From positions 23,769 through 87,768 of the IMG/VR virus record IMGVR_UViG_3300047160_022640: DNA of 64,000 bases; one strand, written 5' to 3'. Shown one piece after another: positions 38,437-55,744 of the stretch (position 1 is the first letter of the stretch; each line of letters begins with the position of its first letter). The translations under genes and the position numbers were made by a program. The notes under the pieces are model-generated. The model was not told where the DNA came from and made no database searches. It saw nothing but the letters and a program-made list of their open reading frames with translations. The DNA comes from a virus (Duplodnaviria > Caudoviricetes).

Positions 38437-38842
38437 TGAGAATGTCTCGCGCTTTCTTGCACGCCGATAGCTCGGAACGTAGTTGATTGATTGTCTGAGT
38501 GTCGTCGTCGATGCGATTGTCCTTCGACGCACAAGCCGCGTGCGCTGTCGCGAGCTCCTTGCGTAGCGCCTCGTACCGTTCCTCGGCGCCCCATCTTGCG
38601 GAGTATAGATTGACGACGTCCTCGTACGCCTGCGACCACCCGTAATCGTCACGATCAGCACCGTTGCCGTAAGCGTGACAGCCTTGTGCTGCGACGCTGC
38701 ACCCAGCAAGCTGCACACGAAGTTGTTCGGCTTCCGCTTCTGCTTTCTCTGCGCGCTCTCGAAGTCGTACGTTAGCGACCTGAATAACGAGCGTCTTCTT
38801 AAGTATCGCCCAAGCTAATGAGAATTTTCGCTTTTCAAACAT
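38423..38842 (-). CDS. Coiled-coil hypothetical protein
   Basis: GTGATG coupling to the dam stop; heptad-like segments. Confidence 0.6.
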   Translation of the reverse strand: MFEKRKFSLAWAILKKTLVIQVANVRLRERAEKAEAEAEQLRVQLAGCSVAAQGCHAYGNGADRDDYGWSQAYEDVVNLYSARWGAEERYEALRKELATAHAACASKDNRIDDDTQTINQLRSELSACKKARDILSESI

Positions 38843-39678
38843 CACCAGTTCCCTTTCGCGCGAATCAACAGCTCTCCTACCTTCCCTCGTTTGCCCCCAT
38901 TCGAATTGATCGCCCGTCGCGCCTGAACCTCTTCGATCAAAAACCCTTCGTATAACTCGCGCACGAACGGCGTGTCGGCGTTCGAGAGCAACACATGCAC
39001 TCCGCGAGCGACGAGCTTCTCGGCGCAATTCCGAAGGCGCTCGTGGTCTTCTAGACTGAAACCGCTCTTCGAGTAGGCGGTGAAATTCGACGTGCTAGAG
39101 AGCGGTACATACGGAGGATCCATGTAAACCGCGTCGCCGCGTTTGGCGGTGCGCACGCATTCCTCGAAATCGCAGGCACCCATATCGACGTCTTTTTTCA
39201 ACACCAGTGCAGCAGCGCGCAACGCTTCTTCGTCGCAGATCGGCGGATTCACATAGTCACCGAACGGAACATTGAATTCGCCCTTCTTGTTCACACGGTA
39301 GAGCCCGTTGAAGCAGGTCTTGTTCAAGTAGATCAAGCGAGCTGCAAGAACGATCACGTCGACACCGAGAATACGATCGGCCACCTGCCGTCCGCGCACC
39401 GAGTAGAAGAATTTCTCGCTGTGCTCCGCCGTGAGCCCGCGAAGCGCCTCGATGACCTTCTCCGGTTTTCGCGCGAGCGTCTGATACGTGAGCATGAGCT
39501 CCGCGTTCGACTCTCCGAGAAAAGCGCGCTTGAATCGACCAGTGTCGGCGAGCGCAAAGAAGACGGCGCCGCCTCCGAGGAAAGGCTCGTAGTAGTCGTT
39601 GAACGTCTCGGGGAGGCGCGGGAGGATCTCCGAGAGCAATCCGGACTTCCCGCCTGCCCATTTCAAGATCGGTTTCAC
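38842..39678 (-). CDS. dam: DNA adenine methyltransferase (D12 class, Dam-like)
   Basis: ILKWAGGK, YYEPFLGGGAV, YLNKTCFNGLYRVN, VYMDPPY. Confidence 0.92.
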   Translation of the reverse strand: MKPILKWAGGKSGLLSEILPRLPETFNDYYEPFLGGGAVFFALADTGRFKRAFLGESNAELMLTYQTLARKPEKVIEALRGLTAEHSEKFFYSVRGRQVADRILGVDVIVLAARLIYLNKTCFNGLYRVNKKGEFNVPFGDYVNPPICDEEALRAAALVLKKDVDMGACDFEECVRTAKRGDAVYMDPPYVPLSSTSNFTAYSKSGFSLEDHERLRNCAEKLVARGVHVLLSNADTPFVRELYEGFLIEEVQARRAINSNGGKRGKVGELLIRAKGNW

Positions 39679-41659: not shown

Positions 41660-42574
41660 TCACTCTTTCTCCTTGCTAACTGTTGCCTTTGCCGCGCGCG
41701 CTTCTTCCAGACGAGCCGCGACTCGGTTGCGAGCCTCGACGATCATTCCTGGGTACGCGCGCAGATATTCTTTCACCTGCTCGTTGAGCTTGCTGTCTCC
41801 GATCTCAGTGAGCATCACCTCGATCTCCTTGCGGAACGTCTCGGCGCGCTCGAGGTCGGCCGAGCGCGCCTTAGCGAATTCGTCCCACGAGAGCAGAAAC
41901 CGTTCCGGAAACGTCGTCAGCGCGCGCGCCTTCGCATCGAACGCCGGGCACCGGCGGGTGTGCGCATAGCGCACGTCGGTCGTTACCGCTTTGAATTCGC
42001 CGCCGACCTTCTGCTGTGAGACTTCCTCGCGAGCGAAGAAGACGTACTCATTCCACTGACGAAGAAGCCCGGCGATTTGATCGCGCATCGCCACCTGGAA
42101 GCGATCGTATCCGGGGCCGCTCGGATCGTCGAAGTGCTTCACCTTCATGTGCGCCGTGAAGACGATCGCGTGCCCAGATGTCCACACGCGTTCGAGAATG
42201 CCGAGGAGCTCGCGCCATCTAATAACAGCAATAGTTTCACCGCGGCCGTAACCACCGTCCCATTTATCGATCGTAGTTCCCTGGAAGAACTCAGCGTTCC
42301 CGAGGTACTCGAGATCACCCGCAGCATCGATCACTAGTGTCTTGCAACGCACCTGGTTCGTCGCGACAGCGTCCACCCAGGAGAGCGTTTCGGTCCACGT
42401 CTCCGGTACGACCCGCTTGACGTCGTATTGAAAACTCCCCTTGTTGAGGTCTAGGAAAAACGGATCCGGAGCGCCGGCGGCAAACTTGGTTTTGCCAATG
42501 CCGTCGGCGCCGTAGATCAGCACGCGAGGTTCGCGTTGCTGTTTGCCTTCGCTGATTCGTTTAAGATCGATCAT
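41660..42574 (-). CDS. AAA_24 family ATPase (Sak4-like recombination protein)
   Basis: VLIYGADGIGKTKFAA, TLVID, WDGGYGRG, IVFTAH; real start MIDLKR downstream of the array. Confidence 0.88.
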   Translation of the reverse strand: MIDLKRISEGKQQREPRVLIYGADGIGKTKFAAGAPDPFFLDLNKGSFQYDVKRVVPETWTETLSWVDAVATNQVRCKTLVIDAAGDLEYLGNAEFFQGTTIDKWDGGYGRGETIAVIRWRELLGILERVWTSGHAIVFTAHMKVKHFDDPSGPGYDRFQVAMRDQIAGLLRQWNEYVFFAREEVSQQKVGGEFKAVTTDVRYAHTRRCPAFDAKARALTTFPERFLLSWDEFAKARSADLERAETFRKEIEVMLTEIGDSKLNEQVKEYLRAYPGMIVEARNRVAARLEEARAAKATVSKEKE

Positions 42575-42605
42575 GGTCTTCCTTTTAAAATGGGGACGGC
42601 GCCCG

Positions 42606-42778
42606 GTAGCCTCGCGCAGCTGTTGATCCTGGGCGGCCTGCGCGAAGAGCTGCTGCCCGTGCGCCAGTCGCGATATTCGTAGCCTCGCGCAGCTGTTGAT
42701 CCTATCGGAGAATGGACGGACGATGACACGGCGCGAACCATGTCGCGATATTCGTAGCCTCGCGCAGCTGTTGATCCT
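42606..42778 (-). CRISPR. Mini CRISPR array: two full 37-bp repeats + one 25-bp partial terminal repeat, 2 spacers (38 and 36 nt)
   Basis: Repeat (minus) AGGATCAACAGCTGCGCGAGGCTACGAATATCGCGAC at 42742-42778 and 42667-42703; partial at 42606-42630; unique spacers 42704-42741 and 42631-42666. Confidence 0.9.
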
Positions 42779-42807
42779 CGTCATCAGGATACCGTGTAAT
42801 TTCGACA

Positions 42808-44391
42808 CTATGCCGCCCGCTCTGCGAGCACCTTCGTCGCGCGAGTAAGAATCACCTTTGCGGCACCCTGATCCTTATCCCTCACGAGACCGCAGCCGGG
42901 ACACGCAACGAGCAATTCTGGTCCATTTTCCACTAGTTCGCCGCACTCTGGGCACTCGCGAGTCGTGTTGCGAGCGGGTACCGTGATTATCTCGGCACCG
43001 TACCGCTCGCAGATCTGCGTGAATTCGTATCGAGCCGAAATGTCCCTAGTGCTTCGCTGTCGGCGCTTCCGTTGTTCCTCCTTCTGTAGCCGTTTGATCT
43101 GAGGCACCGATTCGTCTTCGAACGCGAAAATTGCGTATCGACCACGAAGTTCGCGAACAGTGCGCAGATAGAGCTCACGACGCAAGTTCACGATCCGCTT
43201 TCGGCGCGCCGTGATTCGTCGTTCGTAGCGCATCTCCCAGCGCAACCAATCGGTCTCCTCCGGGGTTCGTACACCCGATCTCATTAACGCGCGTCGGTAG
43301 AGGTATCGATTCCGATGCGCCAACCCGAGTGTTTTTTGTCGAGCTTTGTACGCCTCGTCGAGTCTTCCTTTCATAGTATCGATTTCGTCGAGCGCTGTCC
43401 GGCACTCTGCCGGAATCAAAACTTCCCCACGCTCGCCGTCGTCACCGAGCCATGTGAATACCCGAATCCCTTCACGCCAACGCTCGTGACCGTGCTCGCG
43501 ATGACCCCAATCAAAGGCCACCATGCGCGACTCAGCGCGCGGAACAGATGGCTTCTCCATTTCGATCGTCATGCTTACAGAGTAACTCCAGCGCTCGCCG
43601 TCCTTTCTGCGTGTGAGCTTCATGGTGCGAAACCCGGCATCAAGTGGGATCTGGTGCCAGTTGCCGCATTTTGCTCGCATACGGATCCATTCGTCATTGA
43701 CGCCGATTCGAAGTTCCAGAATCCACCACAACTTCCCGCGTTCTACGATGCGGAAGCCTCCACGATCAGCGGAAAGCGTCACCGGGTCGCGATACTTTGG
43801 TCGACGTAACTCCGCTGGCACACCGTGGGTCCTCGACATCACAACTGCCTTGCGCGCCTGATCAACGCTCCTGAGTAGAGCGTTCCAGGTGCCCCAGTAA
43901 ATGTGCCGAGATGCGTACAGCGTGGCGCGATACGTCTCGCGACGAGTGAGCTTTGTACGACGTTTCGCGCAACGTTCCTCGAACTCAGTCTCACTCTCAC
44001 CGGTTCGACGGCGAGCGCCACCGCGATCCGGTGCGTCTAGAGCCGGCGTGTCTGCCCACGTCAGTGCTTCCTTCCACCTGGGATCAGTGTTGCGTACCGT
44101 ACGAAGCTCCGTGAGCAGGCCTCGAAGCTTCTCGGCTAACTCCGGACGAGGGTTCGGGGACCACGTCCCTTCTGGAGATCGCTCGAATCGTCGCGCGCGG
44201 TGCGCGAGACGCGCAACGATCCGTCCGACCCGAACGATGCCTGGAGCGATCGTGTCGGCTGCGGCATCCATAACTCGCTGATGTTCGTCTTCGAAATCAA
44301 GCAGCCGATGGTACGTCCAACGCGCTGAGGCACATTCCGAGGAAATGCGATCTTCGCGTTCCAGTAGAGAGGGGCGTGAGAGGGTCAGCAT
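42808..44391 (-). CDS. Compact type V CRISPR effector, Cas12m (V-U1)/TnpB-like
   Basis: YWGTWNA..G.PA.LR; RuvC-I VAFDWGHR (D294), RuvC-II FAFED (E425), CxxC-x13-CxxC zinc finger, RuvC-III RDKDQGAA (D507); array 29 nt downstream. Confidence 0.85.
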   Translation of the reverse strand: MLTLSRPSLLEREDRISSECASARWTYHRLLDFEDEHQRVMDAAADTIAPGIVRVGRIVARLAHRARRFERSPEGTWSPNPRPELAEKLRGLLTELRTVRNTDPRWKEALTWADTPALDAPDRGGARRRTGESETEFEERCAKRRTKLTRRETYRATLYASRHIYWGTWNALLRSVDQARKAVVMSRTHGVPAELRRPKYRDPVTLSADRGGFRIVERGKLWWILELRIGVNDEWIRMRAKCGNWHQIPLDAGFRTMKLTRRKDGERWSYSVSMTIEMEKPSVPRAESRMVAFDWGHREHGHERWREGIRVFTWLGDDGERGEVLIPAECRTALDEIDTMKGRLDEAYKARQKTLGLAHRNRYLYRRALMRSGVRTPEETDWLRWEMRYERRITARRKRIVNLRRELYLRTVRELRGRYAIFAFEDESVPQIKRLQKEEQRKRRQRSTRDISARYEFTQICERYGAEIITVPARNTTRECPECGELVENGPELLVACPGCGLVRDKDQGAAKVILTRATKVLAERAA

Positions 44392-44394
44392 GGT

Positions 44395-45252
44395 TTAGCC
44401 TCTAATCGCTCGCCAATCTCCCGCGCGGAGCTTTTTTGTCACTCCGGCCGGCATCTCCTTGATCGTGTCGAGCCACGCCGCGATGTCAGTCGCAACCGTA
44501 TCCTCCGCTCGCTTCGAGATTCCGCCGTTGCCATTTTTGCCGCCGTTCACGATCTCACGGGCCTTGGTCGCGTTCCCGCGTCGCTTCTTGCCGACCGCAC
44601 GTGGCGCGTGCTCCTTGAGCTCGGTGACCTTCTCACGGGCCTCAGATGGTTCCAGCTTCGAAAGCTTGTAACCCTCGCTGGCAGTGATCTGTCCCGCCTC
44701 GACAGCGTTACGCACCGCTGCCGGAGCATCGAGCAACGAAAGCAAATTTTTGATCGAGGCTTTACTGACCCCGAACAACACCGCGATCTCTTCTTCGGTG
44801 TGCCCAAGCTCGATGAACCGTTGCGCTTTACGCGCCCGCCCGAGCGGCGTGTCGTCCTGGCGATTCTCGTTCTCCGAGATCAACATCGCCATTCCGCGGT
44901 GCGCATTGGCGCGCGCGATCATGGCTGGGACCCGGAGAAGCTCCGCGCCCTGCTTCTTCAAACGCTTGTTCGCTTCGCGCGCCGCCTTGACTCGCTGCCG
45001 CCCGACCGCAACCTCGACCTTTCCGGTCTCCGGATCCCGCACGACCGTGATCGGCTCGAGAACGCCCTGCGGTGTCTTTCCGTCCGGAGCGTAGAGCATG
45101 TTCATCACCAGCGATTCGCTCACCGGTAGGTGCACGCGCTCGTCGAACAACGGATGCTTTTCGTCCGTCACGAGAACCAGATCCTCCGGGTCGAACATGT
45201 AGGCGTCGCGTTTACCCTTGGCGTTCAGTGCATCTCTCGATTGTTTCGGCAT
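44395..45252 (-). CDS. ParB/Srx-like N-domain protein with HTH
   Basis: GVLEPITV..VAVGRQRVKAA; ISENENRQD; EEIAVLFGVSKASIKN. Confidence 0.8.
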   Translation of the reverse strand: MPKQSRDALNAKGKRDAYMFDPEDLVLVTDEKHPLFDERVHLPVSESLVMNMLYAPDGKTPQGVLEPITVVRDPETGKVEVAVGRQRVKAAREANKRLKKQGAELLRVPAMIARANAHRGMAMLISENENRQDDTPLGRARKAQRFIELGHTEEEIAVLFGVSKASIKNLLSLLDAPAAVRNAVEAGQITASEGYKLSKLEPSEAREKVTELKEHAPRAVGKKRRGNATKAREIVNGGKNGNGGISKRAEDTVATDIAAWLDTIKEMPAGVTKKLRAGDWRAIRG

Positions 45253-45270
45253 GGTCGTAGTCCTTTCAGC

Positions 45271-45290
45271 GGTGACAGAGTGGTGTCACC
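45271..45290. promoter_or_regulatory. Palindrome upstream of the parB-cas12-array block
   Basis: GGTGACA-GAGTGG-TGTCACC perfect 7-bp arms. Confidence 0.35.
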
Positions 45291-45298
45291 TTGACATC

Positions 45299-46381
45299 TT
45301 ACGACGCGGCACTCAAAAGCATTCCCACCGCATCCGTTTCGACAATGGCGTCCACTCGCCCGCCGAGCGAATACGTTCGCGAAGCCGCCCCTGTCTCTGG
45401 ATTCACCAGTGGGATGCGAAACGTTTGTTCAACCGCGATCAGGCCGGTCGGTTTGCCCCACCGAGCGGCATACCCTACGAGCATCGCTAGCTCCTTCGCG
45501 CGCGTGTAGAGCTCCTCGAGCGGAGCTTCTGGTTTGCTACCGGTGAGCAGTGCAGCCTTCGCCGCTTCCAGATCGCCGCCGGTGCGCCGATACACATCAA
45601 GCGCCGCATGAATACTCGTCCCCGTGCTCAGAGTGTCCGCTTTCTTGAGCGACCGTCTCCGGAGTTCGTAGTAGAAATAGAACTTGCGCGGACAGAGCCG
45701 GTACTTGCGCATCGAGCTCTGCGTCAGCAGATCAAGATCGGCGGAAACGTTGCCGCCCTCCTCGACGAGCTCTGCGTGAAGATCCTTGTCGGTCCTGAAC
45801 AGAAGATCGTCATCGATCGACGCGAGCCCCGAACACACGTTGAGGTACTCGCACTCGCGTGACCACTGCAGACAAGAATCAGGATTTCGCGGGTAGATTT
45901 TCAGTCGGCGCGCCTCGCGCATCTGGGCAGCCGTGTTCCAGGTATCGAAAGCCGCTTCGCGCTCGTCCTGCTCGAGTCGGACGACGACGCCGCGCGCGTA
46001 GTACTTGTCGGGAGCCTCGGCAATGACTTCCAAGCAGCGATCGTGGAACTCTGCTGGGGTTTCGGGACGCGACTGGAGCACGTACCCGAGCTCAGCATCT
46101 CCGGTCTGCCGCCATTTTTTGCCGTCCTTCGTACGCACGCGTTGTCCAGAGGCGTCGAGAACGATTTTAATGCCGTTCTCATCGAGTGTCGGGACGGCGC
46201 TCGGGCGGATGTCAGGTTTTCGGAGGACATCGTAGACAGCCCCGTGCGGGTCGTGACCGAGCTTGCGGATAGCGGGGAGATAGACGGAGAGCTGCGGGTC
46301 TAGCGTGGTGCGCTTCCAGAAAGTGGAGCCGGAGGAGAGGTCCTCGGAGGTTGTCTTGCTTTCCCAAAGATAGACCTTCAC
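45299..46381 (-). CDS. Circularly permuted PD-(D/E)XK (Cas4/AddB-like) nuclease
   Basis: Order ESKTT, QLSVY, C-x6-C-x5-C, then TQSS..CPRK, GTSIH, VEQTF, GRVD; GTG start overlaps the HNH stop. Confidence 0.8.
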   Translation of the reverse strand: MKVYLWESKTTSEDLSSGSTFWKRTTLDPQLSVYLPAIRKLGHDPHGAVYDVLRKPDIRPSAVPTLDENGIKIVLDASGQRVRTKDGKKWRQTGDAELGYVLQSRPETPAEFHDRCLEVIAEAPDKYYARGVVVRLEQDEREAAFDTWNTAAQMREARRLKIYPRNPDSCLQWSRECEYLNVCSGLASIDDDLLFRTDKDLHAELVEEGGNVSADLDLLTQSSMRKYRLCPRKFYFYYELRRRSLKKADTLSTGTSIHAALDVYRRTGGDLEAAKAALLTGSKPEAPLEELYTRAKELAMLVGYAARWGKPTGLIAVEQTFRIPLVNPETGAASRTYSLGGRVDAIVETDAVGMLLSAAS

Positions 46382-46953
46382 GTGAGCCACTTCCACGTTT
46401 GCATTGTACAAATGCGTTGTACATGAGACCTAGAAACACCGAATCGAGCACCTATCGCGTCGTAAGTGGCTCCGGTGCGATTTCTTTCTCTGCGAATACG
46501 AAGGACAACATCTCGAGAGAACTTGTTTAAAGAATTGCGTTCTCCCTTAGCGTAAGTTCCAGATCGGCGCTTTCGACGGTTATTTGCCTGTTCGGTAGCG
46601 GTCGCCCATCTGCAATTTCCAGGTTCGTAGTTGCCGTTCACATTTGGAAAACGATCGATCGAGTGTGATCGAGACGGTTTTGGACCCATGTCCTTTAAAA
46701 ACGCCGAGAACGAAGTGCGCCAGCGATCGCAAACCGTAATTCCGCGACCTCCGTAGAGCGGGTCCATTTTATCAGCGCATCTGCGCTTCATTCCTTGCCA
46801 AACGCGGTATTCAGGAGAGCCCTCCTTGCCGTGAGTTTCTCGAAAATGGACCTCTCCAGGAGCCGCTGACTTGTGCCACTTTTGGTAGTGCGTGGAACAC
46901 AATCCGCGCGCACGTGATACATTACGACATCCGTTGATAGAGCAACGAGTCAT
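46378..46953 (-). CDS. HNH homing endonuclease
   Basis: YGGRGITVCDRW..HSIDR..NGNYEPGNCRWAT..QANN; lower GC than its neighbours. Confidence 0.9.
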   Translation of the reverse strand: MTRCSINGCRNVSRARGLCSTHYQKWHKSAAPGEVHFRETHGKEGSPEYRVWQGMKRRCADKMDPLYGGRGITVCDRWRTSFSAFLKDMGPKPSRSHSIDRFPNVNGNYEPGNCRWATATEQANNRRKRRSGTYAKGERNSLNKFSRDVVLRIRRERNRTGATYDAIGARFGVSRSHVQRICTMQTWKWLT

Positions 46954-47639
46954 GATTGACGTCGAACCTTGAATGGCAATTCAGACGCATCTTCAACCGC
47001 CATGGTTCGCCACCATTCTTTTCGAACTGGATTCCAACGAAATCCGTTGGATTTGACCATCTCTCGTTCTTCGAATGCAGCAAGAGATATAAATTTCGCC
47101 TTCGGTCGCATCCCGTATCGAATCAGCGCCTCGAGATCGTGTCCCTTCTCGGCGAGGCGAGTCAGGATCCTGGCCAGCGTGTCGACGTCCGCCATCGCCC
47201 GGTGCGCGCTCGCAACGCCGAGTCCGTAGCGGAGCGCCAAGTGCGCGAGCGACCCCCCGCGCCCGCCCTTCTGACTACCGGGCCACCGAATGTCTTCTTC
47301 GGTGCAAACCCAAGGGCGACCAAGATCCGGCGTGAACTGCTGATCGAACGCAGCGTTGTGCGCGAGAATCACCGAAGCCGGCTCGATCACCCACTTTGCG
47401 GCGCTCCAGACGCGATCTGACTCACGCGCCTCGCGAATCATTTCTTCTGGGATGCCGTTTATTTCCCACGCCTTGTTCTCGTCAGCGCCGCGAATGAGAC
47501 TCGCAAAACTTGCGACCGCCTGCGCATGCTTGATGTCGAAGAGCATCACCGCGACTTCGATCGTCTTTCCGACGGGCGGCGGCTCTAGATCGGTCGTCTC
47601 CGTATCGAGGAGACCCACGTACCGGATGGGTTCCGTCAT
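46950..47639 (-). CDS. DEDDh 3'-5' exonuclease (DnaQ-like)
   Basis: LLDTETT, LAHNAAFD, AHRAMADV. Confidence 0.9.
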   Translation of the reverse strand: MTEPIRYVGLLDTETTDLEPPPVGKTIEVAVMLFDIKHAQAVASFASLIRGADENKAWEINGIPEEMIREARESDRVWSAAKWVIEPASVILAHNAAFDQQFTPDLGRPWVCTEEDIRWPGSQKGGRGGSLAHLALRYGLGVASAHRAMADVDTLARILTRLAEKGHDLEALIRYGMRPKAKFISLAAFEEREMVKSNGFRWNPVRKEWWRTMAVEDASELPFKVRRQS

Positions 47640-47677
47640 GCCAGTCCTTTCTCTCTCGCTCAACTCTCTCGACGCAG

Positions 47678-47707
47678 AACGTAGACCCCGAAGTCGACGG
47701 TTGTCAA
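47678..47707 (-). promoter_or_regulatory. Sigma70-like promoter of the leftward recombination/CRISPR operon
   Basis: TTGACA-N18-TACGTT in the divergent intergenic region. Confidence 0.5.
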
Positions 47708-47736
47708 CGTTAGAAAGACAAGCTACGGTTCGGAGC

Positions 47737-47907
47737 ATGGAAAACACCGAGAAACTGGTTTCTGCTCGCGTAGGAAAGTCGCTCTACGCGAAAATTCTCG
47801 AGCGACAGAAGGAGGCGAAGAAACAAACCGGAATCGAACCGACCGTCAGCGCCGTTGTGCGGGCCATGCTCGAGGAGTCGGCGGAAAACGGGAAGAGGCG
47901 GCGATGA
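47737..47907 (+). CDS. Ribbon-helix-helix-like regulator
   Basis: KLVSARVGKSLY..SAVVRAMLEE; GGAG ribosome-binding site. Confidence 0.6.
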   Translation: MENTEKLVSARVGKSLYAKILERQKEAKKQTGIEPTVSAVVRAMLEESAENGKRRR

Positions 47908-48576: not shown

Positions 48577-48792
48577 ATGAGCGACGAAAAAACCGTCACC
48601 GCAACCGAAGGCGCCAAGATCCTGATTGAAAGGATTCGGACCGAAGAGAACGAGGAAAAGCGTCTGCAGGAAACACTCTCCTTCTTCAGGGAAGCTCAGC
48701 GAGTGGCGATCCACGAAGCGGCGATCGTTCTCAAGCTTGGCGGGCTTCCTGCGCTGTACCGACTCTTCGCTCATCACGGAATTACAGAATGA
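48577..48792 (+). CDS. Hypothetical protein
   Basis: GAGGAG ribosome-binding site. Confidence 0.6.
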   Translation: MSDEKTVTATEGAKILIERIRTEENEEKRLQETLSFFREAQRVAIHEAAIVLKLGGLPALYRLFAHHGITE

Positions 48793-50066
48793 AACGCTCT
48801 GACCTCTCCCCCGATCAGCGTCACGTCTACGAGTCGATGCTCGATTGGCTTCGTACGCCAGGCAGCCCGCTTCTTACGATCGGCGGCTACGCGGGAACCG
48901 GGAAGAGTTCGCTCCTGGGTCTATTCGCCACCGAGACGAAGCTTCGCGTGGCGTATGTCTGCTTCACCGGTCGCGCCTCGAGCATCCTCGGGCGAAAGCT
49001 CAAAGCCAGCGGTGTAGCCATCACGAACCGCGCCTGCACCGACGACGAGCGCAAGCTCAGTGGATACTGGTCGCACTTGTTCTATTCGCCAGACAGCAAA
49101 GAGGCAGAGTACCCGTTCTGCGGCACCATCCACCGGTTGCTCTATCGTCCGTTCATCGACGACGAAACCGAGGAGCTGCTCGGATGGGACAAGCGGGAGG
49201 AGCTCGATCGAAACTACGATCTCATCGTGATCGACGAGGCGTCGATGATCGATGCCAAGATCGTTTCCGATATCGAGCAACACGGTGTACGCATTCTCGC
49301 CGTTGGAGACCATGGCCAACTACCACCGGTAATGAGCGAGGGTTCCCTCGTCTCGCGCCCGATGCTGCGTCTCGAGAAGATCCATCGTCAGGCTGAGGGG
49401 AGCCCGATCATCCAACTGTCGCGCGTGCTGCGCGAGGAAGGTCGAATGGATCCATCGCTTGCCGACAATGATCGACTCAGATTCCGGCGCATTCAGGACA
49501 TAACGGACCCATCGCTAGCAGCGATGCTGTCGCTGAACAAACTCGATGCGGCTGTGCTCTGCTGGCGGAACGCGACGCGCGTTCATATTAACAAAACCGT
49601 TCGCGGGCACCTGGGATTCACTGGGAAGCCGCCGCAAGCCGGAGAACCGCTCATCGTCTTGAAGAACTACGCACCGATTTACAACGGAATGCGCGGACTC
49701 GTCACCGAAGAGGCGACGTCACCATTCAAGGATGAATGGTGGCTCATGAAGACGAAAATCGAATTTCCGGATGAAGAGCTACCCGCGACGGATCAGGAGA
49801 TCTGTCGCGACCAGTTTCATCGGCCTCGGCCGTTTGACTCGATTGAGGAGCTGAAGAAATCGGGGATACATGTGCACTCGATGGGAGGCGCGGGACGGTT
49901 ATTTGATTTCGGATACGCAATGACCGTGCACAAGAGTCAGGGGTCGCAGTTCAAGCACGCTGTCGTCGCTGTGGACTGGAGACAGGATTACTCGAACGAG
50001 AACACGCGGAGGTTGGCGTATACGGCCGTCACGAGGGCGGCGGAGAGACTCACGGTGCTCCTGTGA
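48789..50066 (+). CDS. RecD/Dda-like SF1 helicase
   Basis: GGYAGTGKS, TIHRLLY, IVIDEASM, VGDHGQLPPV, GYAMTVHKSQGSQF, YTAVTRA. Confidence 0.92.
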   Translation: MKRSDLSPDQRHVYESMLDWLRTPGSPLLTIGGYAGTGKSSLLGLFATETKLRVAYVCFTGRASSILGRKLKASGVAITNRACTDDERKLSGYWSHLFYSPDSKEAEYPFCGTIHRLLYRPFIDDETEELLGWDKREELDRNYDLIVIDEASMIDAKIVSDIEQHGVRILAVGDHGQLPPVMSEGSLVSRPMLRLEKIHRQAEGSPIIQLSRVLREEGRMDPSLADNDRLRFRRIQDITDPSLAAMLSLNKLDAAVLCWRNATRVHINKTVRGHLGFTGKPPQAGEPLIVLKNYAPIYNGMRGLVTEEATSPFKDEWWLMKTKIEFPDEELPATDQEICRDQFHRPRPFDSIEELKKSGIHVHSMGGAGRLFDFGYAMTVHKSQGSQFKHAVVAVDWRQDYSNENTRRLAYTAVTRAAERLTVLL

Positions 50067-50189: not shown

Positions 50190-50375
50190 ATGATCAACGA
50201 AGACAGTGAAGAGGAGCTTCCGACAGAGGAAGACGAAACGGATATCGATGCTCAACTGAAACACGTTAGCGATCAGATCACAGCAAGAGAGGAAGCGCGC
50301 AACCATATCGAATTCAAAAAACTAGGAGAACATATCAACGTGCTGTTCGATGCGCTGTCGAAGCTATCAACATGA
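50190..50375 (+). CDS. Acidic hypothetical protein
   Basis: 61 aa, ATGA-coupled to the helicase. Confidence 0.5.
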   Translation: MINEDSEEELPTEEDETDIDAQLKHVSDQITAREEARNHIEFKKLGEHINVLFDALSKLST

Positions 50376-51991
50376 AGGACACCGCCACTCTCCCCCTCTT
50401 CGACCGCATCCCCTTCTTCGCTACCGATCCGCCCAAACTCCGCCCCTACCAGTCCCGCGCGATCCAGCGCCTCCGCGACCTCATTCGTTCCGGCAAAAAA
50501 CGCATCCTGCTCGTCCTTCCCACCGGATCAGGCAAGATGGTTTTGATCGCGAGCATCATCCGTACCTCAACCGTTCGTGTGCTTTTCGTCTGCGACTCCC
50601 AGGAGCTCATCGAGCAGTGCGTCAACGAGCTCGCTGCCGTCGGCATCACGAACGTCGGCGTGTTGCGCGGCGACGACTACCGAGAGAACCCGGACGCCAC
50701 GGTCCAGATCGCCTCGATTCAAACGCTTGCTCGGCGCGTGAAGCCGCCGGCGGAACTTATCCTCATCGATGAGGCGCACCTGTCTGCAAGCGACTCATAT
50801 CAAACTCACGTCTTCGATCACTATAAGAGCGCCATCATTATCGGTTTTACCGCAACTCCCGCTCGCCTCGACGGGAAACCGCTCGGTAATTCGTTCGAAT
50901 GTCTCGAGGTCGTGTGCGGGTACCAAGAGCTCATCAAAGCCGGGTTCATCGTTGAGCCACTCTGTTACACCGGACCGACGGAGCTCGATCTCTCCACGAT
51001 TCAGCTCATCGGCGGCGACTACAACGAGACCCAGCTCGGGGACTTCATGCGCAACCAGGCGCTCGTCGGAAGCCTCCTCGAGCACTGGCAGAAGCTCGCG
51101 AACTTGTATCCGCGCGCGAACGGACACCCGGGGCTCGTCGAAGGCCCCCACCGACGCACGTTCATTTTCGCGGTGAACATCGCGCATTCGCTCGATATTT
51201 GCGCCCGGTTCGAATCCGCTGGCGTTCGCATCGCGCATCTCGATGCGAAGACCACGGACACCGAACGCAAGCGCGTCATCGCCGCAATCGGTGCCGGTGA
51301 GCTCGACGTGATCACGAACGTCGGAATCCTGCTCAAGGGCGTCGACGTCCCGAGCGTGAAGTGCGTCACGCACGCTCGTCCAACTTGCTCGCTTACGCTC
51401 TGGCGGCAGTCTTGCGGTCGCATCCTGCGGCCGTGGCATCCGGGATGCCGTCGCGGCTGTACGCAGCATCCGAGCGTGATTCCGATGCTCATCGACCACG
51501 CCAACAACATTCAGCGCCTCGGGTTCCCGCACGAGGATCTCCACTGGTCCCTCACCGAACGCGCGGTGTCGACCACTAGGCGCGAGGCGACTCGTATCTG
51601 TCGCGGCTGCTTCGCAATGCTCCCCGCGTACAAACGCCTCTGCCCGTACTGCGGCAAGGACGCCCCGCCACCCGATCCGTCGGACATCCCCGCAGAGACC
51701 GAAGCGAAGCTTCAGCAACTCGCGACGTCGCCTGAGGAGATGAAGAGAATGTACTTCGACACCATCGTGCGGGTTGCGCGTTTGAAGGGCCACAAGCCCG
51801 GGTTCGCCGCCGTGCGGTTCAAGGAGCGCTACGGCGCGTGGCCACCGTGGGAGTGGAGCCAGGAAGTCAAAGCGTCGTTCGCGAGCGATCCGGAATGGCA
51901 GGAGGCGTACGCGATCAAGGCAAAGAAGAAACAAGAGAGGGAGCTCGAGAAGATGGCGCGGGAGCAGGCGAAGATTGAGGATCCAGAATAA
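50372..51991 (+). CDS. SF2 helicase (ResIII/DEAD-like, phage type) with C-terminal Zn finger
   Basis: LRPYQ, LPTGSGK, IDEAH, GFTATP, GVDVP, QSCGR; CRGC..CPYC. Confidence 0.9.
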   Translation: MKDTATLPLFDRIPFFATDPPKLRPYQSRAIQRLRDLIRSGKKRILLVLPTGSGKMVLIASIIRTSTVRVLFVCDSQELIEQCVNELAAVGITNVGVLRGDDYRENPDATVQIASIQTLARRVKPPAELILIDEAHLSASDSYQTHVFDHYKSAIIIGFTATPARLDGKPLGNSFECLEVVCGYQELIKAGFIVEPLCYTGPTELDLSTIQLIGGDYNETQLGDFMRNQALVGSLLEHWQKLANLYPRANGHPGLVEGPHRRTFIFAVNIAHSLDICARFESAGVRIAHLDAKTTDTERKRVIAAIGAGELDVITNVGILLKGVDVPSVKCVTHARPTCSLTLWRQSCGRILRPWHPGCRRGCTQHPSVIPMLIDHANNIQRLGFPHEDLHWSLTERAVSTTRREATRICRGCFAMLPAYKRLCPYCGKDAPPPDPSDIPAETEAKLQQLATSPEEMKRMYFDTIVRVARLKGHKPGFAAVRFKERYGAWPPWEWSQEVKASFASDPEWQEAYAIKAKKKQERELEKMAREQAKIEDPE

Positions 51992-54867: not shown

Positions 54868-55632
54868 TTACCACCACCTAGGAATTGACTCTGTCCATAG
54901 TCGCGCTCTAGGAACATGCATCTTTCCGCCTTTCCACTCATTGCGAACCGATCCAGTCATCTCTGATATCAAAATTTTCTCCGGAGCAGGTTTCGTTTTC
55001 CGCCATCGCTTGGATCGTTTTTCGTATCCTCCTACGAATCCCACGTCCGTCTCGAACTCTTCGACATAAATCATGTAGTCATCGAAGTGTATCGGCATCA
55101 CGAATCCTCCGCCGACCCAGTAATACACTCGACCAAAATAAAGAGTGTGCAGCCATTTTTCCCATACGGTTGGTGAGAACCTGTCTGTACCGTCTCCGAC
55201 GCAACTATCCCGCCAAGGAACCACCCAGAGAACGAAGATCCCTTTCTTCTCATACTCGCTGGTTCTCTTGAAGATTCTTTCCAACCCAAGAGAGCTAGCC
55301 TGTACCTCTACTGCCACCGGCGAATTTCCGATGTACCCGCTCACATCGGGACGCACACTATCCAGGTCACGCTCCAGTTCCCACTTGGATGCGTTTGTCA
55401 CTGAACGCATGAATCTGCAGATTTCCGTCTTGCACCACCGATGCTCCTCCGATTCACCGCTTCCGTAGTCGCAGGAAAACGGTGGGTAATGCGCAAAGTG
55501 ATGGATCTTCACCTCTCCTTTTTTCAGAGAGACCTGAGTGGAACATGCCGGGCAGCACCAGGGACCGTTTTCCTTGAGTTCCTCAGAAGCCTCAACCCTG
55601 ATCCCATCAGACTGCCTTTTCGCAACCAACAT
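54868..55632 (-). CDS. CoiA-like nuclease (Zn-ribbon + PD-(D/E)XK)
   Basis: CPAC..LKKG..HHFAH..C..ESEEH; RPDV..AVEVQAS; lower GC. Confidence 0.8.
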   Translation of the reverse strand: MLVAKRQSDGIRVEASEELKENGPWCCPACSTQVSLKKGEVKIHHFAHYPPFSCDYGSGESEEHRWCKTEICRFMRSVTNASKWELERDLDSVRPDVSGYIGNSPVAVEVQASSLGLERIFKRTSEYEKKGIFVLWVVPWRDSCVGDGTDRFSPTVWEKWLHTLYFGRVYYWVGGGFVMPIHFDDYMIYVEEFETDVGFVGGYEKRSKRWRKTKPAPEKILISEMTGSVRNEWKGGKMHVPRARLWTESIPRWW

Positions 55633-55744
55633 TACAGTGTCACTTGAGTGGGGACCAGAGGGGGGAGGTGTCCAGTTTACCCTAGCCAGTTCGGCGGTCA
55701 CTTTACGTTGGTAGACGGTTCCGGGAGGACTTCTATGCGTTCTG

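What the first reader, a model, noticed from the sequence alone, without database searches (positions are those of the whole stretch)
45299..46381. Circularly permuted Cas4/AddB-like PD-(D/E)XK nuclease
Known order in this family: S.S..CP(R/K), GT..H, VE..F, G..D, (D/E)xK, Q..Y, then three C-terminal Fe-S cysteines. Seen here: the protein starts MKVYLWESKTT (ExK strand), then QLSVY and C-x6-C-x5-C. Only after a linker come TQSSMRKYRLCPRK, GTSIHAALD and VEQTF, and it ends just after GGRVDAIVE. The chain is therefore opened between the two catalytic strands, and the four putative Fe-S cysteines become nearly contiguous. It is one uninterrupted ORF whose GTG start overlaps the stop of an HNH gene. 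Inference: a functional natural permutant, possibly from duplication and deletion or from homing-endonuclease insertion near the catalytic codons.
Basis: partly seen in the sequence, partly recalled or inferred. Interest (0 to 1): 0.72.

Follow-up and report, generated by a model that had tools for sequence, protein, structure and literature searches.

The report
Circularly permuted phage Cas4/AddB-type nuclease
This soil-phage gene encodes an iron-sulfur DNA-end nuclease whose two halves are in swapped order compared with most relatives, a real and conserved natural circular permutation that opens the chain inside the catalytic hairpin.

Summary
The minus-strand ORF 45299-46381 (360 aa from the GTG) is a PF12705 PD-(D/E)XK nuclease. 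Its first 206 residues (ExK, QxxxY, three Cys, HxEL) match the C-terminal part of canonical relatives. Residues 218-350 (Cys-Pro-Arg, GTxxH, VExxF, GGxxD) match their N-terminal part.

The order is not an artefact. Contigs from independent soil metagenomes bridge the internal junction and both gene ends without a difference. More than 100 protein clusters and 31 IMG/VR phage loci share it, and all catalytic and Fe-S residues are invariant. AlphaFold gives a confident model (pLDDT 92.8) whose secondary-structure string is an exact rotation of a canonical relative's.

The same family holds a second permutation (the first ~55 residues moved to the end), found also in cultured Tunturiibacter phage Tunturi_1 gp59. 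Trees and AU tests favour several independent origins. This is firm for the second class and less so for the window's class.

The HNH gene upstream is a sporadic mobile insertion and is not linked to the permutation. The nuclease is conserved next to a Sak4-like annealing protein, so it is most likely the phage's recombination exonuclease.

I found no publication describing this. The scan has reported the same family before on other DNA.

The parts
45299..46381 (-). Whole ORF: permuted PD-(D/E)XK Fe-S nuclease, 360 aa from GTG 46381, stop 45299-45301. A gene caller used GTG 46396; the longest ORF starts at TTG 46411.
   Evidence: Homologues start MK(V/C)YL.ETKT at the position of the 46381 GTG. 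In L007 the stop-to-stop frame begins only 2 codons before this strand.
45764..46381 (-). Segment S3 (residues 1-206), the canonical C-terminal part: ExK strand, QxxxY helix, beta-hairpin insert, Cys triad, HxEL.
   Evidence: BLASTP 55-61% identity to residues ~130-345 of canonical-order relatives; hhalign E 1e-87; phrog_1218 positions 155-330.
46355..46363 (-). Catalytic E7-S-K9 (motif III, ExK) on the N-terminal strand.
   Evidence: E7 and K9 are at least 90% conserved in 71 permuted homologues; strand E2-11 has pLDDT ~95.
46280..46294 (-). Q30-L-S-V-Y34 (QxxxY motif).
   Evidence: Q30 and Y34 invariant.
45833..45874 (-). C170-x6-C177-x5-C183, three of the four Fe-S ligand cysteines.
   Evidence: All three invariant; they correspond to C307/C314/C320 of the canonical alignment.
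45731..45763 (-). Linker (residues 207-217) joining the ancestral C-terminus (after HAEL) to the ancestral N-terminus (LLTQS...). This is the 'junction near 45750'.
   Evidence: Lowest pLDDT block, 71-82; variable length and sequence among homologues; bridged by independent contigs.
45578..45730 (-). Segment S1 (residues 218-268), the canonical N-terminus: LTQSxxxxYRLC230PRK (fourth Cys) and GTSIH258 (motif I).
   Evidence: C230 and H258 invariant; Pfam PF12705 profile 2-135 and phrog_1218 positions 7-151 start here.
45332..45526 (-). Segment S2 (residues 286-350): long helix (GYAARW), VE318QTF strand, GGRVD344 strand (motif II Asp).
   Evidence: E318 and D344 invariant; strands E314-326 and E333-348 with pLDDT 93-95.
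45302..45331 (-). New C-terminal tail (residues 351-360), a short helix after the Asp strand.
   Evidence: H349-355 in the model; tail length is 3-35 residues among homologues.
46378..46953 (-). HNH homing-type endonuclease with a C-terminal HTH. Its TGA overlaps the nuclease GTG.
   Evidence: phrog_374 E 4e-40. Its position is variable or it is absent in syntenic relatives.
46950..47747 (-). DnaQ-like 3'-5' exonuclease, the conserved upstream neighbour.
   Evidence: PF00929 E 1.7e-11; phrog_192; 44-70% identical copies upstream of the nuclease in L002-L024.
44395..45252 (-). ParB-like protein, the downstream neighbour.
   Evidence: PF17762 E 1e-11; phrog_1033 E 5e-48.
42808..44391 (-). TnpB-like (Cas12f1-like TNB domain) ORF, inserted between the ParB and Sak4-like genes in this phage only.
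   Evidence: PF07282 E 7.5e-10. No counterpart in the related loci, where AAA_24 follows ParB or the nuclease directly.
41660..42808 (-). Sak4-like ssDNA-annealing ATPase (AAA_24), the conserved partner of the nuclease.
   Evidence: PF13479 E 1.8e-30; phrog_124 E 1.5e-27. It is found downstream of the nuclease in nearly all 80 related loci of all three topologies.
48789..50066 (+). SF1 (RecD/PIF1-like) helicase, a divergent neighbour conserved in relatives.
   Evidence: PF13604, PF13538 and PF05970; 55-79% identical copies in L002-L018.

Best explanation
The ORF encodes an active, naturally circularly permuted member of the AddB/AdnA/Cas4-type iron-sulfur PD-(D/E)XK nucleases (Pfam PF12705). 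In canonical proteins the order is S1 (N-terminal Cys, GxxxH), S2 (helix, VExxF strand, GGxxD strand), then S3 (ExK strand, QxxxY, three Cys, HxEL). Here it is S3, an ~11-residue linker, S1, then S2. The old termini, which the 4-Cys Fe-S cluster holds together in canonical proteins, are fused by the linker. The new termini lie in the loop of the beta-hairpin that carries the catalytic Asp (now C-terminal strand, D344) and Glu/Lys (now N-terminal strand, E7/K9). The folded protein is inferred to be the same three-dimensional enzyme. The gene sits in a phage replication and recombination module (SF1 helicase, DnaQ-like exonuclease, nuclease, ParB-like, Sak4-like annealase). It most likely resects DNA ends 5'-3' to feed the Sak4-like annealing protein, as lambda Exo/Bet and RecE/RecT do. 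The window's protein belongs to a large, old clade of permuted phage genes. A second permutation (S2-S3-S1) exists in the same family, and permutation appears to have happened more than once. Shown here: the permuted order, its conservation, the DNA integrity, the confident fold and the synteny. Inferred: Fe-S binding, pairing of the terminal strands, nuclease polarity and the recombination role.
For: Permutation: split PHROG and Pfam matches; BLASTP of the halves against 272 homologues gives 128 S3S1S2, 122 S1S2S3 and 14 S2S3S1; hhalign E 1e-87. Function retained: D344, E318, H258, Q30, Y34 and C170/C177/C183/C230 are invariant, and E7 and K9 are at least 90% conserved, in 71 permuted sequences down to 48% identity. 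Fold: the AF2 model has pLDDT 92.8 and pTM 0.86, with pLDDT ~95 on both terminal strands. Its element order is an exact rotation of the canonical relative P0110's model, pLDDT 96.5. The canonical model hits AdnA, AddB, ACE1, RecE, Cas4 SSO0001 and Dna2 at Foldseek E 3e-7 to 5e-3. In the permuted model, residues 156-353 match the N-parts of AdnA/AddB/ACE1/3l0a, and residues 1-246 match the C-parts of Cas4 7mi4 and 3k93. Not an artefact: contigs from four runs bridge all junctions with 0 differences; 31 IMG/VR loci carry the same order, each with a single ORF and no leftover fragments. The window lies in an 87.8-kb virus record rated 100% complete, with one copy. Role: a Sak4-like AAA_24 gene lies downstream in nearly all loci of all topologies. 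Tunturi_1 gp59 (permuted class II) lies beside a Sak4-like SSAP and SSB. Recurrence: permI needs 5 changes and permII 10-11 on the trees. AU rejects a single clade for permI (p 1e-4) and for permII (p 6e-10).
Against: No biochemical data exist for any member. I could not obtain model coordinates, so pairing of the N- and C-terminal strands is inferred from pLDDT and element order, not measured. Structural matches of the permuted model itself are weak (Z at most 4.1; no Foldseek hit at E <= 0.001). No solved relative is detectable by sequence. Multiple origins of the window's class rest mainly on the S3 segment: the S1+S2 partition alone does not reject one clade (p-AU 0.088). One origin plus recombination with canonical genes is therefore not excluded. 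The constrained trees came from fast searches under LG+F+G4. No tandem-duplicate intermediate was found.
Confidence: 0.85

Rival explanations
1. Assembly artefact: the permuted order comes from a misjoined contig or a collapsed tandem repeat.
For: The record is a metagenome-assembled viral genome.
Against: Independent Logan contigs from four runs cross the junction near 45750, the 3' end and the HNH/nuclease boundary with 0 differences. The same order occurs in 31 other IMG/VR loci and more than 100 protein clusters from JGI, ENA, NCBI and Logan.
Confidence: 0.01
2. Decaying remnant of a tandem duplication (copy 1 truncated at its N-end, fused to copy 2 truncated at its C-end) that is no longer a working enzyme.
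For: Duplication plus truncation is the standard route to permutation, and the linker is poorly conserved.
Against: All catalytic and cluster residues are invariant across sequences only 48-75% identical. The fold is confident. Synteny is conserved in many phages. There are no leftover fragments within 1.2 kb of any of 80 loci.
Confidence: 0.03
3. The order is simply normal for this family, and the reader compared it with the wrong relatives.
For: Within the window's own clade (114 of 263 rows) every member has this order.
Against: Relatives up to 61% identical in S3 have the canonical order. So do 108 of the 150 best 50%-identity representatives. The Pfam and PHROG profiles are canonical. The solved AddB, AdnA, Cas4 and RecE structures match the canonical relative end to end.
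Confidence: 0.03
4. The permutation was created by a mobile homing element (HNH gene or intein) inserting at the catalytic codons, which split the gene before reordering and refusion.
For: An HNH gene abuts the new N-terminus here. Canonical relatives P0122-P0124 carry LAGLIDADG inteins directly after the ExK lysine, about 9 residues from the break. HNH genes flank the nuclease in many loci.
Against: The HNH gene lies upstream, downstream or is absent among close syntenic relatives that all share the permutation, and it also flanks canonical genes. The intein site does not coincide with the break. No split two-ORF forms were seen, other than ORFs cut by contig ends. The second permutation class breaks at a different place.
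Confidence: 0.05
5. The window's permutation class arose once, and its scattered placement on trees reflects recombination of the S3 segment with canonical-order genes rather than repeated permutation.
For: The S1+S2 partition does not reject one permI clade (p-AU 0.088), and phage genes are often mosaic.
Against: The concatenated and S3-only data reject one clade (p 1e-4 and 1e-3). The three permI groups have different linker and N-terminal motifs: LLTQS in the main clade against RLPL(V/L)T(S/T)S in groups B and C. The latter resembles the N-termini of neighbouring canonical proteins.
Confidence: 0.3

Closest known systems
Canonical-order phage 'exonucleases' of the same family
   Same: 55-61% identity over S3 and 37-48% over S1+S2. 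Same catalytic residues, same four cysteines, same beta-hairpin insert, and the same neighbour (Sak4-like AAA_24).
   Different: Chain order is S1-S2-S3 instead of S3-S1-S2. The termini sit at the Fe-S cluster instead of in the catalytic hairpin.
AddB and AdnA nuclease domains (RecB-family nucleases with the Fe-S cluster; PDB 3U44, 4CEJ, 6PPR, 9NP6)
   Same: Best structural matches of the canonical relative (Foldseek E 3e-7 to 5e-5). Partial matches of the permuted model. One N-terminal plus three C-terminal Cys ligands and the D / ExK / QxxxY active site.
   Different: They are domains of large helicase-nuclease subunits in canonical order. Sequence similarity is undetectable by HMM against PDB.
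Cas4 family (PF01930; SSO0001 4IC1, Cas4-Cas1-Cas2 7MI4, Argonaute-associated ACE1 9IAB)
   Same: Small stand-alone Fe-S PD-(D/E)XK nucleases with the same motif set; structural hits for the canonical relative.
   Different: PF01930 is not matched (E 0.28, below cut-off). There is no CRISPR or Argonaute context, and the order is permuted.
Class II permutants of the same family (S2-S3-S1), e.g. Tunturiibacter phage Tunturi_1 gp59 'exonuclease' (PP887698)
   Same: Same family, same recombination-module context (Sak4-like SSAP, SSB), and also a natural circular permutation.
   Different: The break lies after the GxxxH helix, moving about 55 N-terminal residues to the end. It does not cut the catalytic hairpin.
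Hef/XPF nuclease domain (PDB 1J22), the circular permutation already described in the PD-(D/E)XK superfamily (Steczkiewicz et al. 2012, PMC3424549)
   Same: A natural circular permutation within the same superfamily fold.
   Different: [quoted passage not shown] Here the chain is opened between the two catalytic beta-strands of an Fe-S-bearing RecB/Cas4-type enzyme.
Lambda Exo / RecE with Bet / RecT (two-component phage recombinases)
   Same: A PD-(D/E)XK exonuclease gene conserved next to an ssDNA-annealing protein gene. RecE (3H4R) is a structural hit of the canonical relative.
   Different: The partner is a Sak4-like RecA-fold ATPase. The nuclease carries an Fe-S cluster and is permuted. 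Polarity and oligomeric state are unknown.

Membership tests
PF12705 PDDEXK_1 (AddB/RecB-type PD-(D/E)XK nucleases) | Match to the family profile above the curated cut-off | tested here: met
   56.6 bits against a cut-off of 22, E 4.9e-15, in two non-collinear stretches.
PF12705 PDDEXK_1 (AddB/RecB-type PD-(D/E)XK nucleases) | Catalytic residues: motif I His, Glu strand, motif II Asp, motif III ExK, QxxxY | tested here: met
   H258, E318, D344, E7/K9 and Q30/Y34 are invariant or at least 90% conserved in 71 homologues.
PF12705 PDDEXK_1 (AddB/RecB-type PD-(D/E)XK nucleases) | Canonical linear order of motifs (Cys, His, E, D, ExK, QxxxY, 3 Cys) | tested here: not met
   The order is ExK, QxxxY, 3 Cys, Cys, His, E, D. 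This is the finding itself: same fold family, permuted chain.
Fe-S ('iron staple') nucleases of the AddB/AdnA/Cas4/Dna2 type | Four Cys ligands, one from the N-terminal segment and three from the C-terminal segment | tested here: met
   C230 (S1) plus C170/C177/C183 (S3) are all invariant and correspond to C17 and C307/C314/C320 of the canonical alignment.
Fe-S ('iron staple') nucleases of the AddB/AdnA/Cas4/Dna2 type | Actual binding of a [4Fe-4S] cluster and metal-dependent nuclease activity | not testable with these tools
   Needs purified protein.
Fe-S ('iron staple') nucleases of the AddB/AdnA/Cas4/Dna2 type | Three-dimensional similarity to solved members | tested here: inconclusive
   Permuted model: no Foldseek hit at E <= 0.001, and VIA Z at most 4.1 with half-by-half matches. 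Canonical relative 55% identical in S3: AdnA, AddB, ACE1, RecE and Cas4 at E 3e-7 to 6e-4. Sequential aligners cannot span a permutation.
Cas4 proper (PF01930, CRISPR-associated) | Match to PF01930 above cut-off | tested here: not met
   E 0.28, 11.7 bits against a cut-off of 22.7.
Cas4 proper (PF01930, CRISPR-associated) | cas gene / CRISPR neighbourhood | tested here: not met
   The neighbours are DnaQ-like exonuclease, HNH, ParB-like, TnpB, Sak4-like ATPase and helicase. I ran no repeat search for a CRISPR array.
Two-component phage recombination modules (exonuclease + annealing protein) | Conserved adjacency of the nuclease gene and an SSAP gene | tested here: met
   An AAA_24 / Sak4-like gene lies downstream of the nuclease in nearly all of 80 loci. 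In the window it is separated by ParB and an inserted TnpB. Tunturi_1 has gp59-gp57.
Natural circular permutants (protein-evolution sense) | Both orders exist among clear homologues, each as a single intact ORF with conserved functional residues | tested here: met

The most novel reading that the evidence does not exclude
This one phage nuclease family has been circularly permuted repeatedly and independently. By AU tests and starred branches there are at least 2 origins of the catalytic-hairpin break and at least 5 of the break after motif I. A likely reason is that the Fe-S cluster already clamps the native termini together. That would make it a natural replicated experiment on how permutations arise and are tolerated, including one class that cuts between the two catalytic strands.
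Probability: 0.55. Interest if true: 0.72.

Novelty: new variant of a known kind. Interest (0 to 1): 0.6.

Why it matters
Natural circular permutations that open the chain inside an active-site hairpin are rare. Here canonical and permuted forms coexist at up to about 60% identity in one family, with a second break point and probably repeated origins. That gives protein-evolution and folding studies matched natural pairs to compare. It also tests the idea that a cluster clamping the termini predisposes a fold to permutation.

There is a practical consequence too. The permutation blinds sequential structure searches: Foldseek found nothing significant for the permuted model but 20 significant hits for its canonical relative. 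It also splits HMM matches, so such phage nucleases are easily under-annotated.

Functionally the gene is probably an ordinary phage recombination exonuclease.

Tried and rejected
1. Foldseek of the permuted model against PDB gave no hit at E <= 0.001. VIA-align wide gave Z at most 4.1, mixed with cytochrome P450 noise.
2. A profile search of solved structures by sequence found nothing relevant.
3. A search for longer, possibly tandem-duplicated forms returned only three intein-bearing canonical proteins. No protein in the sample has two S1 or two S2 segments.
4. A sensitive six-frame HMM search of 1.2-kb flanks of 80 loci for leftover gene fragments found none.
5. The treekit AU test under the mixture model did not finish in three 300-s runs. 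I replaced it with iqtree2 LG+F+G4 fast searches.
6. Literature searches for circular permutation together with Cas4, RecB, PDDEXK or iron-sulfur found only genome-level 'circularly permuted' uses, the Hef/XPF case and unrelated proteins.
7. The genome-contig scan gave a single locus, a Gemmatimonadales MAG contig with 63% identity. This is too little to name a host.
9. The cultured-phage collection holds no close relative, only the 28%-identical Tunturi phages.
Full report
**What is there.** On the minus strand, one open frame runs from a stop at 45299-45301 up to GTG 46381 (360 aa). In-frame GTG 46396 and TTG 46411 lie a little further up. Homologues begin MK(V/C)YL.ETKT exactly at the 46381 GTG. 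In one relative (L007) the stop-to-stop frame begins only two codons before this strand. The GTG overlaps the TGA of the upstream ORF 46378-46953 as GTGA. That ORF is an HNH endonuclease by PHROG 374, E 4e-40, although Pfam saw only its C-terminal HTH. Plus-strand ORFs under the gene are all 90 aa or shorter, and I did not pursue them.

**The permutation is real at sequence level.**
- Pfam PF12705 (PDDEXK_1) matches at 56.6 bits in two stretches. Residues 229-360 of the TTG-start translation (219-350 from the GTG) cover profile positions 2-135 of 247.
- Split searches against PHROG 1218 ('exonuclease') put the C-half on profile 7-151 and the N-half on profile 155-330 of 364.
- I divided the protein into three segments. 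S3 is residues 1-206 (ExK, QxxxY, three Cys, HxEL). S1 is residues 218-268 (LTQS...C230PRK, GTSIH258). S2 is residues 286-350 (helix, VE318QTF, GGRVD344).
- Segment HMMs classify 272 collected homologues as 128 S3-S1-S2 (like the window), 122 canonical S1-S2-S3 and 14 S2-S3-S1; 8 are incomplete.
- Canonical relatives are 55-61% identical to the window over S3 and 37-48% over S1+S2.
- hhalign of the permuted profile against the canonical profile aligns residues 1-209 with canonical 138-346 at E 1e-87.

**It is not an artefact or a wreck.**
- The window lies in an 87,768-bp IMG/VR virus record rated 100% complete, with a single copy of the gene.
- Logan contigs from four soil-metagenome runs cover the gene in pieces with zero differences. 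They bridge the linker near 45750 (X3 45028-45937, X2 45693-45843, X1 45718-45894). One of them (X3) also crosses the 3' end into the ParB gene. Three cross the HNH/nuclease boundary (X1 46290-46625, X2 46219-46579, X4 46269-46484). These runs may include the source sample and may belong to one campaign.
- Independently, 31 of 80 related IMG/VR loci carry the same order, 15 carry S2-S3-S1 and 34 are canonical. Each has one ORF only, and no leftover fragments lie within 1.2 kb.
- In an alignment of 71 permuted proteins (48-75% identical to the window), D344, E318, H258, Q30, Y34 and all four cysteines (C170, C177, C183, C230) are invariant. E7 and K9 are at least 90% conserved.

**Fold.**
- AlphaFold2 on that alignment gives pLDDT 92.8 and pTM 0.86, with pLDDT about 95 on the N-terminal strand (2-11) and 93-95 on the C-terminal strands (314-326, 333-348). 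The only soft spot is the linker, at 71-82.
- A control model of the canonical relative P0110 (pLDDT 96.5) has the same secondary-structure elements in rotated order: beta1 97-111, beta2 118-134, beta3 139-148, and so on.
- The canonical model finds AdnA, AddB, ACE1, RecE, Cas4 SSO0001, MGME1 and Dna2, from Foldseek E 3e-7 for AdnA to about 1e-2 at the weak end, with 20 matches at E <= 0.001.
- The permuted model finds nothing significant. With VIA-align it gives only half-by-half matches: model 156-353 on the N-parts of AdnA, AddB, ACE1 and 3L0A, and model 1-246 or 1-162 on the C-parts of Cas4 7MI4 and 3K93, all at Z 4.1 or less.
- I could not access coordinates. That the two terminal strands pair to rebuild the D/ExK hairpin is therefore an inference.

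**Anatomy of the rearrangement.** The old C-terminus (…LFRTDKDLHAEL) is joined through about 11 variable residues to the old N-terminus (LLTQSSMRKYRLCPRK). The new N-terminus starts 4-8 residues before the ExK glutamate, and the new C-terminus ends 3-35 residues after the Asp strand. The four Cys ligands are about 300 residues apart in canonical proteins (C17 against C307-C320) and lie within 61 residues here. In AddB, AdnA and Cas4 the cluster ties the N- and C-terminal parts together (established knowledge for these families). This explains why fusing the termini costs little.

**More than one permutation, probably more than one origin.**
- The class S2-S3-S1 moves the first ~55 residues to the end. 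It occurs in 15 viral loci and in the cultured Tunturiibacter phage Tunturi_1, whose gp59 is annotated only as 'exonuclease'.
- I built trees from the segments concatenated in canonical order. On these the window falls in a pure permuted clade: 114 of 263 rows in FastTree, and 9 of 95 rows with SH-aLRT 98 in IQ-TREE.
- Two further permI groups and about ten permII lineages sit among canonical proteins. That is 5 and 10-11 changes; starred branches force at least 2-3 and at least 5-7.
- AU tests reject one clade for permI (delta lnL 242, p 1e-4) and for permII (p 6e-10).
- By partition, S3 rejects both. S1+S2 rejects permII (p 0.005) but not permI (p 0.088). For the window's class, one origin plus recombination therefore stays possible.
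- Linker motifs differ between the permI groups: LLTQS against RLPL(V/L)T(S/T)S. The latter resembles the N-termini of neighbouring canonical proteins.
- No duplication intermediates were found.

**Mobile elements nearby.** Among syntenic relatives that share the permutation, the HNH gene is upstream (L002, L003, L006, L008, L010, L014), downstream (L009, L015, L027) or absent (L004, L005, L007, L011, L012). It also flanks canonical genes (L041, L043, L060, L062). Three canonical relatives carry LAGLIDADG inteins inserted right after the ExK lysine. The gene is thus a hotspot for homing elements. Neither the HNH position nor the intein site coincides with the break, and I see no causal link.

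**Likely function.**
- Gene order on the minus strand is DnaQ-like exonuclease, HNH, nuclease, ParB-like, TnpB-like, then a Sak4-like AAA_24 ATPase. An SF1 helicase lies divergently upstream.
- The DnaQ-like gene, the helicase and especially the Sak4-like gene are conserved around the nuclease in relatives. The Sak4-like gene follows the nuclease in nearly all 80 loci, whatever the topology.
- Tunturi_1 has exonuclease, Sak4-like SSAP and SSB in a row.
- The best-supported role is the exonuclease half of a two-component phage recombination system, resecting ends for the annealing protein. This is an inference from synteny and family. Polarity, substrate and cluster binding are untested.

**Novelty.** Circular permutation is recorded in the PD-(D/E)XK superfamily only for the first helix of Hef/XPF (PMC3424549). 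I found no paper on a permuted Cas4/RecB-type nuclease. Earlier notes of this scan describe the same family on other genomes, in both classes and with the suggestion of repeated origins. I re-derived those points independently here. It is a new variant of a known kind: same enzyme family, same probable job, unusual chain topology.

**Host.** The holding runs are soil metagenomes. The only genome-collection relative is a contig binned with a Gemmatimonadales MAG, and the nearest cultured phages infect an acidobacterium. The host remains unknown.

Noticed in passing
window 42808-44391 (-): A TnpB-like ORF (527 aa, Cas12f1-like TNB domain, PHROG transposase) is wedged between the ParB-like and Sak4-like genes, with 1-4-nt junctions and no TnpA. 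Related phages have AAA_24 directly after ParB or the nuclease, so this looks like a recent insertion in this phage. Any omega-RNA would overlap the start of the Sak4-like gene.
   Followed up: partly
proteins P0122, P0123, P0124 (canonical-order relatives, 696-771 aa): LAGLIDADG inteins (PF14528 and PF14890) are inserted immediately after the catalytic lysine of ExK (…EHK|C…THN|T…).
   Followed up: partly
window 46378-46953 (-); loci L002-L062: HNH endonuclease genes sit on either side of the nuclease gene, or are absent, in close relatives. They also flank canonical-order genes. This is the pattern expected of free-standing homing endonucleases targeting this locus.
   Followed up: partly
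L082:2752-3786 (Tunturiibacter phage Tunturi_1 gp59, PP887698): A cultured acidobacterial phage carries the second permutation class (S2-S3-S1). It is annotated only as 'exonuclease' and lies next to a Sak4-like SSAP and SSB, so it is a tractable system for experiments.
   Followed up: partly
window 41660-42808 (-): The Sak4-like AAA_24 ORF as listed has ~75 extra N-terminal residues compared with most relatives (alignments start at residue ~75-80). Its GTG overlaps the TnpB stop, so the real start may be further downstream.
   Followed up: no
proteins P0203 (708 aa), P0213 (673 aa), P0146 (443 aa), P0148 (444 aa): Some family members have 130-390-residue N-terminal extensions of unknown nature: fusions to canonical forms in P0203 and P0213, and an extension on a permuted form in P0146.
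   Followed up: no
window residues 63-103 of the nuclease (about 46073-46195): A ~40-residue beta-hairpin insert (…LDENGIKIVLDASGQRVRTKDGKKWRQTGD…) is highly conserved where present but missing in several permuted and canonical subgroups (e.g. P0086, P0093, P0143).
   Followed up: no
window 54868-55701 (-), 55888-58719 (-), 38842-39678 (-), 50372-51991 (+): Other replication and repair genes are present in the window: a CoiA-like nuclease, a 943-aa Prim-Pol protein, a Dam-type N6-adenine methyltransferase and an SF2 (ResIII/SNF2-like) helicase.
   Followed up: no
L083 (JBBRQC010000020.1, Gemmatimonadales MAG, 54.6-kb contig): This is the only hit in 185,579 species genomes: a 63%-identical permuted nuclease on a contig binned with a Gemmatimonadales MAG. 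It may be a phage contig or a prophage, and is only a weak host hint.
   Followed up: no
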